IMG/VR virus record: IMGVR_UViG_2703718859_000009
Direction: 5' to 3' (one strand)
Origin: a virus
Taxonomy: Duplodnaviria > Heunggongvirae > Uroviricota > Caudoviricetes
DNA length: 4,018 nt
In this document: one piece after another, positions 3,001 through 4,018 of the stretch
Layout: each line of letters starts with the position of its first letter
Position numbering within the stretch: the stretch's first letter is position 1
Position numbers: made by a program

Positions 3001-4018
3001 CCTGTGCCCCGAAAACCGCTTTCACGATCTGTGCATTACGGATATCCCCGCGCTCATCACCCAGCGGGGATATCCTGTCGAACTCCATCCACATCATCGC
3101 CTCGCTCGCACTCAGGCTGTGCCGCAGTTCGGATAAGGTGCGCCCCAGACGGAGCGCAAGTCGCATCAGAAAGCGAATTTCCGGGCGGGCTACTTTTTTC
3201 TGACCGACTCTGCATCAGCGATCAGTTCCAGTGCCTGACGCAGCAAGCGGGCATGTACCGGACCATAGACGGCCAGCACCTGCTCACGGTCGTCCGGAGT
3301 GAACACCCGTTGCAGATCCGTATCACACAGGACATCGCAGAACAGCGTCACATCCGCTTCCAGGTTACGGCGGGTTTTCGCCACCACCGACAGGGTATCA
3401 TCATCCTCTCCATCACCATTGAGCACGTCCTGCCACAGATACCAGGCCTCTGCCGAAGGCTCCCGCAGCACCACGCTGACATTACCCCATTCCGGCACCT
3501 TCACCGTTTTATGACGAAACCCTGACAGTCTGGCCAGCGCCAGCGTTTTCAGATCCTTTTTCATGATGACCCATCCCCTTATCCGGCGGCTGCGCTCACT
3601 GTCACGGTGCATTCAACAGACGTCACACTCTGTGCTTTCTCTGCCGAATCAGTCACCACGCAGGTATATTTCCCCGCATCGGCGGACTGCGCACCTGGCT
3701 TACTGAAGGTGTCTGTCGTCTGCCCGTCAACCGGCTGACCATCCTTCTTCCAGGCGTATTTATACGGCGGCGTTCCCCCGTTGGCACTGACTGACATTGT
3801 CAGCAGCACACCGGTATTCACGGTAAGTGTCTTATCCAGATTTTTCACAAACGCCAGCGGTACCACAAAGGACACCGGTTTGCCTTTCAGACGCAGTGAG
3901 AACGTTGCAGCCACCACGCCGTTGGTACCGGATGACCAGGTGTGCTGACGCACTTCCGCCAGGAATTTAAAGCCCTTACCGGACGGAAACTGCACCTTAA
4001 ACGCATACAACGCGTCAT

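What the first reader, a model, noticed from the sequence alone, without database searches (positions are those of the whole stretch)
3190..3217. G to GT -1 programmed frameshift at a dnaX-type heptamer (A_AAA_AAG) abutting the zero-frame stop codon
Two overlapping minus-strand frames are open here: the G frame ends at UAG 3192..3190, and the -1 frame is open from 3217 down to 2885. The only slippery heptamer in the overlap is A AAA AAG (3199..3193), and the zero-frame stop follows it directly (A AAA AAG UAG). Lambda uses G_GGA_AAG several codons before the G stop (my recollection); this site is a different solution to the same conserved G/GT arrangement, with the stop codon possibly acting as a pause. 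The GT fusion is expected at low stoichiometry relative to G and is needed for tail assembly.
Basis: partly seen in the sequence, partly recalled or inferred. Interest (0 to 1): 0.55.

Follow-up and report, generated by a model that had tools for sequence, protein, structure and literature searches.

The report
Known prophage tail-chaperone G/GT frameshift site

Summary
On the minus strand a 124-codon gene (ATG 3564, stop UAG 3192..3190) ends ...AGA AAA AAG UAG. The heptamer A_AAA_AAG (3199..3193) is in the correct phase and is the only X_XXY_YYZ motif in the whole gene. The -1 frame is open from 3214 (not 3217) to 2885.

The upstream gene is an HK97-type tail assembly chaperone (Pfam PF06222). 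The -1 frame encodes a lambda-T-type domain (PF06223). The pair lies between the major tail gene and the tape measure gene. The interpretation, a G/GT -1 programmed frameshift, is supported.

It is not new:
- Antonov et al. 2013 (PMC3711429, Table S2) cloned a 75-nt cassette that differs from this window at one base and measured 7% -1 frameshifting in E. coli.
- Sharma et al. 2014 (PMC4066793) list the cluster as a true case (ECs1801; 124 aa and 226 aa products; no SD; no meaningful hairpin).
- The HK97 homologue is annotated with the frameshift.

It resembles dnaX only in the heptamer, and no dnaX-like stimulators were found.

One untested point remains. All 119 distinct homologous contexts keep an in-phase A_AAG. 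Those that lack a slippery P-site codon all have the stop directly adjacent, which hints that the stop helps.

The parts
3190..3564 (-). Gene G: tail assembly chaperone, 124 codons plus UAG stop (ATG 3564..3562; stop 3192..3190)
   Evidence: ORF and translation. Pfam PF06222 Phage_TAC_1, E 1.3e-60, full length. PHROG 344, tail assembly chaperone. SD-like pairing upstream of the ATG, -8.4 kcal/mol. RefSeq calls it 'phage tail assembly chaperone' in the 100% identical genome.
3193..3199 (-). Slippery heptamer A_AAA_AAG in X_XXY_YYZ phase of G; the last two sense codons of G
   Evidence: Identical in the published cassette that frameshifts at 7%. The in-phase A_AAG is kept in all 119 distinct homologous contexts.
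3190..3192 (-). Zero-frame stop UAG directly after the heptamer; read as G|UA G.. (Val, then Ala) after the shift
   Evidence: The stop is directly adjacent to AAG in 93 of 119 distinct contexts and in 18 of 25 sequence clusters.
2885..3193 (-). T segment: -1 frame read after the slip (GUA 3193..3191 ... stop TGA 2887..2885), 102 codons; joined to G it gives the 226-aa GT
   Evidence: Pfam PF06223 Phage_tail_T, E 2.6e-18, at residues 152-221 of the fusion. Lambda T and the HK97 T part hit the same family. PHROG 14766 (224 positions) spans both halves.
3215..3217 (-). TGA in the -1 frame: upstream limit of the two-frame overlap
3164..3166 (-). ATG used by RefSeq/GenBank as the start of a separate 'protein T' CDS; most likely an internal Met of GT (FLM motif)
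   Evidence: Annotation. No SD (-3.5 kcal/mol, against -8.4 and -6.6 for the G and tape measure starts). The peptide upstream of it is conserved (Pro at shift+3 in 77/78, Phe at +7 in 77/78). Six of 78 contexts have Leu in place of this Met, and four of those have no ATG anywhere between the shift codon and the LAL motif.
3579..4016 (-). Context: 3' part of the major tail protein gene, with a C-terminal Ig-like domain
   Evidence: Pfam Ig_3, Ig_2 and I-set. 'Major tail subunit' in RefSeq.
1..2837 (-). Context: tape measure protein gene (ATG 2837, runs off the window)
   Evidence: Pfam TMP_3, Phage_HK97_TLTM and Tape_meas_lam_C. TIGR01541 and TIGR02675.

Best explanation
The window is the tail-assembly part of a lambdoid E. 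coli prophage with HK97-type tail genes, read on the minus strand: major tail protein, G, T, tape measure protein. Most ribosomes translating G stop at UAG 3192..3190 and release the 124-aa chaperone G. A few per cent slip back one base on A_AAA_AAG (3199..3193). The single E. coli tRNA-Lys pairs at least as well with AAA as with AAG. These ribosomes read GUA GCC CGC CCG... and finish a 226-aa GT fusion (...SVRKK-VARPEIRFLM...). By analogy with lambda, the G part binds the tape measure protein and the T domain recruits the major tail protein. A large G:GT excess is needed for tails of correct length, and neither protein is in the virion.

Shown here: the anatomy, the protein families, the frame relation, and conservation of the site and of the trans-frame peptide. 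Shown in the literature: about 7% -1 frameshifting on an almost identical cassette. Inferred: the roles of G and GT in this phage, and which tRNA(s) slip. The signal looks like a bare heptamer without dnaX-like stimulators. The adjacent stop may give a second chance for the P-site tRNA-Lys to slip while the A site waits for release factor 1.
For: - Phase and uniqueness of the heptamer, and the fusion sequence.
- G is PF06222 and T is PF06223. HK97 gp13 and its T part hit the same two families, and lambda T hits PF06223.
- Synteny between the major tail gene and the tape measure gene.
- HK97's homologous pair is annotated 'translated due to a -1 frameshift'.
- Antonov et al. 2013, PMC3711429, Table S2: the Phage_TAC cluster insert is 74/75 identical to window 3219..3145 (the only difference is at 3203) and gives 7% +/-0.79 -1 frameshifting in a GST-MBP reporter in E. 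coli. That cluster is not among those reported to show internal initiation.
- Sharma et al. 2014, PMC4066793, Tables S4, S6 and S8: cluster A_AAA_AAG_25, ECs1801 tail assembly chaperone, marked [true], 124 aa and 226 aa, no SD, hairpin ddG/nt 0.020, below their 0.09 threshold.
- Family survey: T is in the -1 frame in 231 of 234 loci that could be scored. All 119 distinct contexts have an in-phase A_AAG in the overlap, and 44 of them have A_AAA_AAG followed directly by a stop.
- The -1-frame peptide is conserved from the shift codon onward, upstream of the annotated ATG.
- Rare one-ORF fusions have exactly the predicted junction: P0003 ...KKVALPGMRF, and L046 with A9 instead of A8.
Against: - Nothing here measures frameshifting on this exact sequence. 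The published cassette has GCC where the window has GTC, three codons upstream of the stop.
- The reporter cannot separate ribosomal from transcriptional slippage.
- G shows no BLASTP similarity to lambda G, and T shows none to lambda T, so the functional analogy rests on Pfam profiles, synteny and HK97.
- In the 100% identical genome the portal gene of the same prophage is annotated as frameshifted, and the tape measure gene in the window carries an unusual 52-codon deletion. This particular copy may therefore not make phage.
Confidence: 0.9

Rival explanations
1. The product is the same, but the main route is different. The slip happens after translocation, when tRNA-Lys on AAG sits in the P site and the slowly decoded UAG sits in the A site (a 'shifty stop'). 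The essential signal is then A_AAG_UAR, and the 5' half of the heptamer is an optional enhancer. This refines the best explanation and does not exclude it.
For: - A_AAG is the only invariant element (119 of 119 contexts).
- 49 distinct contexts in 7 sequence clusters (Klebsiella/Raoultella, Pantoea, Erwinia, Phytobacter, Yersinia and others) have P-site codons that cannot re-pair (A_GCA_, G_GCA_, A_GAA_, G_GTA_, T_GCA_AAG), and every one has the stop directly adjacent.
- All 26 contexts in which the stop is not adjacent have a perfect or near-perfect heptamer (A_AAA_AAG, G_GGA_AAG, G_GAA_AAG).
- A_AA.G is the most shift-prone tetramer in E. coli (PMC4066793).
- A_AAG-only sites are used in IS1222 and B. 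subtilis cdd, and a stop close to a -1 site matters in pea enation mosaic virus (PMC5009743).
Against: - The association is weak once relatedness is allowed for: 7 versus 0 clusters, one-sided Fisher p = 0.066; p = 0.011 on the first 78 contexts, which are not independent.
- The second published cassette, G_GGA_AAG_CCG_UAA, has the stop one codon away and gives a similar 6%. Adjacency is therefore not needed for this level.
- Adjacency could simply be inherited, or could reflect constraint on the G C-terminus and the T-frame Val codon.
Confidence: 0.35
2. T is made on its own from ATG 3166, as RefSeq and GenBank annotate it, and no fusion is needed.
For: RefSeq and GenBank annotate a separate 93-aa CDS from this ATG in E. 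coli genomes and in Stx phages. An ATG is present at this position in 72 of 78 contexts.
Against: - No SD before the ATG (-3.5 kcal/mol, against -8.4 and -6.6 for the neighbouring genes).
- The peptide is conserved for nine codons upstream of it, back to the shift codon (Pro in 77/78, Phe in 77/78).
- Six of 78 contexts have Leu instead of this Met, and four have no ATG between the shift codon and the LAL motif.
- The published reporter shows fusion product, and this cluster is not listed among those with internal initiation.
- The lambda RefSeq record annotates T separately in the same way, although lambda T is reported to be made as GT (PMC5009743).
Confidence: 0.05
3. The fusion arises from RNA polymerase slippage on the A run (one extra A in some transcripts), not from the ribosome.
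For: The site is a homopolymer. Many relatives have 8 A (AAA AAA AAG). The published reporter cannot tell the two mechanisms apart. Natural DNA-level A insertions do fuse the frames (L046).
Against: - The window has only 6 A. The transcriptional realignment runs cited in PMC3711429 are longer than 7 A.
- 57 distinct contexts have no A run at all (GCA_AAG, GAA_AAG, GGA_AAG) yet keep the A_AAG in phase.
- The same heptamer is an established ribosomal shift site in dnaX and IS911.
Confidence: 0.03

Closest known systems
E. coli O157 prophage tail assembly chaperone cluster: GeneTack 'Phage_TAC [862991913]' (Antonov et al. 2013) and 'A_AAA_AAG_25', ECs1801 (Sharma et al. 2014)
   Same: Same gene family and same heptamer directly before the stop. 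Same product sizes (124 and 226 aa). The tested 75-nt cassette is identical at 74 positions.
   Different: One base differs (window 3203 T; Val instead of Ala three codons before the stop). I did not fetch ECs1801 itself to compare.
Phage HK97 gp13 and its -1 frameshift product (NC_002167, 7472..7858 and 7472..8145)
   Same: Same Pfam families for both halves (PF06222 and PF06223), same gene order, same -1 relation. The junction peptide ...K|V.TPG.KFLM aligns with the window's.
   Different: The HK97 site is CGG_GAA_AAG, five sense codons before the stop. It is not a perfect heptamer, and a second possible site (C_CCG) lies nearer the stop. HK97 also has a moron gene (gp15) between T and the tape measure gene.
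Phage lambda G/GT (Levin, Hendrix and Casjens 1993; Xu, Hendrix and Duda 2004, 2013, 2014, as summarised in PMC5009743)
   Same: Same position in the tail operon, -1 shift near the end of G, low efficiency, AAG as the A-site codon, and a T domain of the same Pfam family.
   Different: Lambda G belongs to a different family (PF06894), with no BLASTP similarity. Its heptamer is G_GGA_AAG, with five sense codons before the stop.
E. coli dnaX gamma/tau frameshift
   Same: Identical heptamer A_AAA_AAG, read by the single tRNA-Lys.
   Different: dnaX has an upstream SD-like element and a downstream stem-loop, shifts at about 50%, and makes the shorter product by shifting. Here there is no SD and no conserved hairpin, the efficiency is 7%, and the shift makes the longer product.
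Single-tRNA A_AAG shift sites (IS1222 G_CGA_AAG, B. subtilis cdd A_CGA_AAG) and 'shifty stops' (Weiss et al. 1987)
   Same: Relatives of this gene with GCA_AAG_UAA have only the tetramer, next to a stop. The window's site contains the same A_AAG_UAG core.
   Different: The window also has a fully slippery P-site codon, so tandem slippage is available. No experiment links the stop to the efficiency here.

Membership tests
Tailed-phage G/GT tail assembly chaperone pair with programmed -1 frameshift | Two overlapping ORFs between the major tail protein gene and the tape measure gene | tested here: met
   Order on the minus strand is major tail (Ig domain), G, T, tape measure protein.
Tailed-phage G/GT tail assembly chaperone pair with programmed -1 frameshift | The downstream ORF is in the -1 frame and lacks its own translation signals | tested here: met
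   -1 relation in the window and in 231 of 234 scorable relatives. No SD before ATG 3166. The peptide is conserved upstream of that ATG.
Tailed-phage G/GT tail assembly chaperone pair with programmed -1 frameshift | A slippery sequence in phase inside the overlap, conserved among relatives | tested here: met
   A_AAA_AAG at 3199..3193. An in-phase A_AAG is present in 119 of 119 distinct contexts.
Tailed-phage G/GT tail assembly chaperone pair with programmed -1 frameshift | Homology of both halves to known chaperone and T families | tested here: met
   PF06222, E 1.3e-60, and PF06223, E 2.6e-18. HK97 and lambda controls.
Tailed-phage G/GT tail assembly chaperone pair with programmed -1 frameshift | A fusion protein is actually made at low level | not testable with these tools
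   Published for a 74/75-identical cassette: 7% +/-0.79 in E. coli (PMC3711429, Table S2).
Tailed-phage G/GT tail assembly chaperone pair with programmed -1 frameshift | G and GT are both required, in a balanced ratio, for tail assembly and are absent from virions | not testable with these tools
   Known for lambda only (PMC5009743).
dnaX-type frameshift signal | Heptamer A_AAA_AAG | tested here: met
dnaX-type frameshift signal | SD-like stimulator about 10 nt upstream | tested here: not met
   The best anti-SD pairing in the 25 nt upstream is -3.6 kcal/mol. No SD is recorded for this cluster in PMC4066793, Table S8.
dnaX-type frameshift signal | Stable stem-loop a few nucleotides downstream, conserved | tested here: not met
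   - RNAalifold finds no consensus pair in 39 relatives.
- A weak hairpin 5 nt downstream (-5.8 kcal/mol) is paired in only 64% of cells.
- The strong hairpin (-13.6 kcal/mol, 3158..3139) starts 34 nt downstream and shows no compensatory change.
- Published ddG/nt is 0.020, below the authors' threshold.
dnaX-type frameshift signal | High efficiency (about half of ribosomes) | not testable with these tools
   The published value for the near-identical cassette is 7%, against about 50% quoted for dnaX.
'Shifty stop' single-tRNA -1 slippage | A stop codon directly 3' of a codon whose tRNA can re-pair at -1 | tested here: met
   AAG_UAG preceded by A. The stop is adjacent in 93 of 119 contexts.
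'Shifty stop' single-tRNA -1 slippage | Efficiency depends on the stop codon and on release factor supply | not testable with these tools
   Only an indirect comparative hint: non-slippery P-site codons occur only where the stop is adjacent (cluster-level p = 0.066).

The most novel reading that the evidence does not exclude
In the HK97-type chaperone family the minimal recoding signal is A_AAG followed directly by a stop codon. The stop, and not a second slippery codon or an RNA structure, supplies the pause. This would explain why many Klebsiella, Pantoea, Erwinia and Yersinia prophages manage with GCA_AAG_UAA or GAA_AAG_UAA, and why a slippery or near-slippery P-site codon is always present when the stop lies further away. 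It would make release factor availability a host input into the G:GT ratio.
Probability: 0.3. Interest if true: 0.35.

Novelty: already known. Interest (0 to 1): 0.12.

Why it matters
Practically, it is an annotation point. RefSeq and most GenBank phage records call the T frame a separate 93-aa gene from an internal ATG and do not mark the slippage. Near-identical copies occur in 1246 of 5426 complete E. coli genomes, up to 7 per genome, including Stx-converting phages. Biologically, it adds nothing to what Xu, Hendrix and Duda established for tailed phages and what Antonov et al. and Sharma et al. recorded for this cluster. The only open thread is whether the adjacent stop codon contributes to the shift.

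Tried and rejected
- BLASTP of G and T against lambda G and T found no similarity. The link to lambda had to be made through Pfam profiles.
- NCBIfam has no model for G/GT.
- A stimulatory RNA structure was sought and not found. RNAalifold on 39 relatives predicts nothing. The GC-rich hairpin at 3158..3139 folds well (z = -2.56 for the 70-nt stretch that contains it), but it lies 34 nt from the site and shows no covariation. The proximal hairpin is weak and inconsistently paired; its shuffle score is high, but the tool warns that related sequences can produce this without structure.
- An SD-like stimulator was sought and is absent.
- The promoter/terminator scan of 2700..3700 reported nothing, although RNAfold shows a hairpin plus T run after T.
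- My first generalised classifier used an out-of-frame HK97 T query and misassigned several loci. It was redone.
- Xu et al. 2004 is not in the held library, so its list of slip sites could not be checked.
- The exact deletion junction in the tape measure gene was not found in IMG/VR.
- I did not fetch ECs1801 itself. The link to it rests on the matching 124 and 226 aa sizes and the gene name.

Full report
**What is there**

Read on the minus strand, the window is the middle of a tail gene module.
- The 3' part of a major tail protein gene with a C-terminal Ig-like domain (4016..3579).
- A 124-codon gene (ATG 3564, stop UAG 3192..3190).
- A 102-codon stretch open in the -1 frame (to 2885).
- A tape measure protein gene (ATG 2837, running off the window).

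The 124-aa protein matches Pfam PF06222 (Phage_TAC_1) over its full length (E 1.3e-60). The -1 frame matches PF06223 (Phage_tail_T; E 2.6e-18). PHROGs gives 'tail assembly chaperone' for the first, and it has one 224-position family that covers both halves in a row.

**The observation**

The last codons of G are GTC AGA AAA AAG TAG. A_AAA_AAG lies at 3199..3193 in the X_XXY_YYZ phase, directly before the stop. It is the only canonical slippery heptamer in the whole gene.

The -1 frame carries a TGA at 3217..3215, so it is open from 3214. A -1 slip gives a 226-aa protein with the junction ...SVRKK|VARPEIRFLM....

The seven-letter string is not rare by itself: one match against 0.46 expected in the window. 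Its phase, its place in a 25-nt overlap and its conservation are what make it meaningful.

**Where it comes from**

The G-T region is 100% identical to a prophage of E. coli 2012EL-2448. It is 98-99% identical to Stx-converting and related lambdoid phages (YYZ-2008, 2851, JLK-2012 and many Stx1a/Stx2 phages). Near copies occur in 1246 of 5426 complete E. coli genomes, up to seven per genome.

RefSeq and GenBank annotate G and T as two separate genes, with T starting at ATG 3166. The prophage has HK97-type head and tail genes.

**Known relatives**

- HK97 gp13 and the T part of its frameshift product hit the same two Pfam families. The HK97 record annotates the long product as 'translated due to a -1 frameshift'.
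- Lambda T is in the same Pfam family as the T part here. Lambda G is in another family (PF06894), and BLASTP shows no similarity.

**This site has been tested and catalogued**

Antonov et al. 2013 (PMC3711429) found a cluster of 41 'phage tail assembly chaperone' genes similar to an HK97 protein. They cloned two cassettes between GST and MBP.
[quoted passage not shown] It gave 7% +/-0.79 frameshifting in E. coli. Window 3219..3145 is identical to it except at 3203, where GTC replaces GCC.
- The second...GCG_GGA_AAG_CCG_TAA..., gave 6%.
- This cluster is not among those the authors list as also showing internal initiation.

Sharma et al. 2014 (PMC4066793) list prophage cluster A_AAA_AAG_25.
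- Its example gene is ECs1801, 'tail assembly chaperone', marked as a true case.
- The zero-frame product is 124 aa, the motif lies at its very end, and the -1 product is 226 aa. These are the sizes found here.
- No SD is recorded, and the predicted hairpin is no more stable than the local average (ddG/nt 0.020, against their threshold of 0.09).

**Survey of relatives**

I fetched loci encoding relatives of G from one-genome-per-species contigs and from IMG/VR. For each I located the G stop, the T frame and the shift-prone sites.

T is in the -1 frame in 231 of the 234 loci that could be scored. The three exceptions look like indels. One of them, L046, has nine A instead of eight, which fuses G and T at exactly the predicted junction.

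All 119 distinct 150-nt contexts have an in-phase A_AAG in the overlap. The site types, as counted:

| Site type | Distinct contexts |
|---|---|
| A_AAA_AAG directly followed by UAG or UAA (Escherichia, Serratia, Pectobacterium, Brenneria, Symbiopectobacterium, Xenorhabdus, Morganella, Proteus, Providencia, Yersinia, Kosakonia and others) | 44 |
| A_AAG plus adjacent stop, with a P-site codon that cannot re-pair (GCA, GAA or GTA; Klebsiella/Raoultella, Pantoea, Erwinia, Phytobacter, Yersinia) | 49 |
| Stop 1 to 8 codons away, always with A_AAA_AAG, G_GGA_AAG or G_GAA_AAG (the last is the HK97 type) | 26 |

**T is not a separate gene**

- The -1-frame peptide is conserved from the shift codon onward. 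In 78 distinct contexts there is Val at +0 (76), Pro at +3 (77), Phe at +7 (77), then [LM]-x-LALR[LM]G[RK]T.
- The Met that the annotation uses as a start is residue +9 of this conserved stretch, and it is Leu in six contexts.
- Four contexts have no ATG between the shift codon and the LAL motif.
- No SD precedes ATG 3166 (-3.5 kcal/mol, against -8.4 for G and -6.6 for the tape measure gene).
- One-ORF fusions are rare in the protein database and look like indels: P0001 has lost four junction residues (VARP), which I read as an 11-nt deletion, P0002 carries two indels, and P0003 has the predicted junction.

**Stimulators**

- There is no SD-like element in the 25 nt upstream (best -3.6 kcal/mol).
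- Downstream there is a weak hairpin 5 nt from the heptamer (-5.8 kcal/mol) and a strong one 34 nt away (3158..3139; -13.6 kcal/mol).
- RNAalifold finds no consensus structure in 39 relatives.
- The strong hairpin has no compensatory changes. The weak one is paired in only 64% of cells.
- Together with the published ddG value and the 7% efficiency, the signal behaves like a bare heptamer. 'dnaX-type' therefore describes the heptamer only.

**Mechanism**

The best-supported account is ordinary -1 ribosomal slippage of tRNA-Lys on A_AAA_AAG, giving a few per cent GT next to G. GT would link the tape measure protein to the major tail protein, as in lambda; this functional part is inference from PMC5009743.

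Whether the adjacent stop contributes is open. The comparative pattern is what a P-site slip with the stop in the A site predicts: non-slippery P-site codons occur only where the stop is adjacent. But it reaches only p = 0.066 when counted by sequence cluster (7 versus 0 of 25 clusters). And the cassette with the stop one codon away shifts about as well (6%).

Transcriptional slippage is unlikely with six A, and it is impossible to invoke for the many relatives without an A run.

**Verdict**

Interest is low. The value lies in correcting a widespread annotation habit, and in a modest, testable question about the stop codon.

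Noticed in passing
window about 2576..2578 (minus strand, inside the tape measure gene): The window lacks 156 nt (52 codons, ADEWSSVNARLKQ...ARSAAS) that are present in the otherwise 99.7-100% identical prophage of E. coli 2012EL-2448. The junction reads TCG CTT|ATG CGT, against the reference TCG CTG GCG GAT...GCC TCG ATG CGT. All 12 best complete-genome matches carry the 156 nt, and the junction 26-mer is absent from IMG/VR. 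The deletion is in frame and would shorten the tape measure, and presumably the tail. It could be a rare natural deletion, an assembly artefact or an edited sequence; this is unresolved.
   Followed up: partly
window 2879..2856 (minus strand), between the T stop and the tape measure start: A terminator-like hairpin followed by a T run (GAGAACCGC TGAG GCGGTTTTT TT). RNAfold gives a 9-bp stem, with -14.6 kcal/mol for the 47-nt stretch that contains it. The consensus scan did not report it. The HK97 and HK633 records annotate putative terminators at the same relative place, just before the tape measure gene.
   Followed up: partly
window 3166..2885, and L001, L002, L148: RefSeq and GenBank annotate T as a separate CDS from an internal ATG, with no ribosomal slippage, in E. 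coli genomes, in Stx phages and even in the lambda RefSeq record. HK97 is annotated correctly. This affects copies in 1246 of 5426 complete E. coli genomes.
   Followed up: yes
window 4016..3582 (minus strand): The C-terminus of the major tail protein carries an Ig-like domain (Pfam Ig_3, Ig_2, I-set). Here it is fused in frame.
   Followed up: no
L145 (HK97) 1838..1859, and L003-L006, L020: The HK97-type relatives have CGG_GAA_AAG five codons before the stop, which is an imperfect heptamer. They also have an in-phase C_CCG one codon before the stop. Either site would preserve the conserved PGVKFLM peptide. Which one HK97 uses could not be determined here.
   Followed up: partly
L046 1857 (Ca. 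Symbiopectobacterium endolongispinus); proteins P0001, P0002, P0003: Rare single-ORF G-T fusions. L046 has A9G instead of A8G. P0001 has lost four junction residues (VARP), which I read as an 11-nt deletion removing the stop. P0002 has two indels. P0003 has the predicted KKV junction. They could be mutations in decaying prophages or homopolymer sequencing errors.
   Followed up: partly
L002 7047..9793 and 16559..17713 (E. coli 2012EL-2448 prophage): In the genome whose G-T region is identical to the window, the portal gene of the same prophage is annotated as frameshifted (pseudogene). A porin gene annotated ompC sits among the tail genes, between the tape measure region and the L-like gene.
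   Followed up: no
window 3158..3139 (minus strand), and alignment A3 columns 62-81: A GC-rich 8-bp hairpin (UGCGCUCC GUCU GGGGCGCA, -13.6 kcal/mol) overlies the conserved ALRLGR codons. Relatives that have Lys (AAA) instead of Arg (CGC) also drop the unusual GGG Gly codon. No compensatory pairs are seen, and the hairpin is too far (34 nt) from the slip site to act as a classical stimulator.
   Followed up: partly
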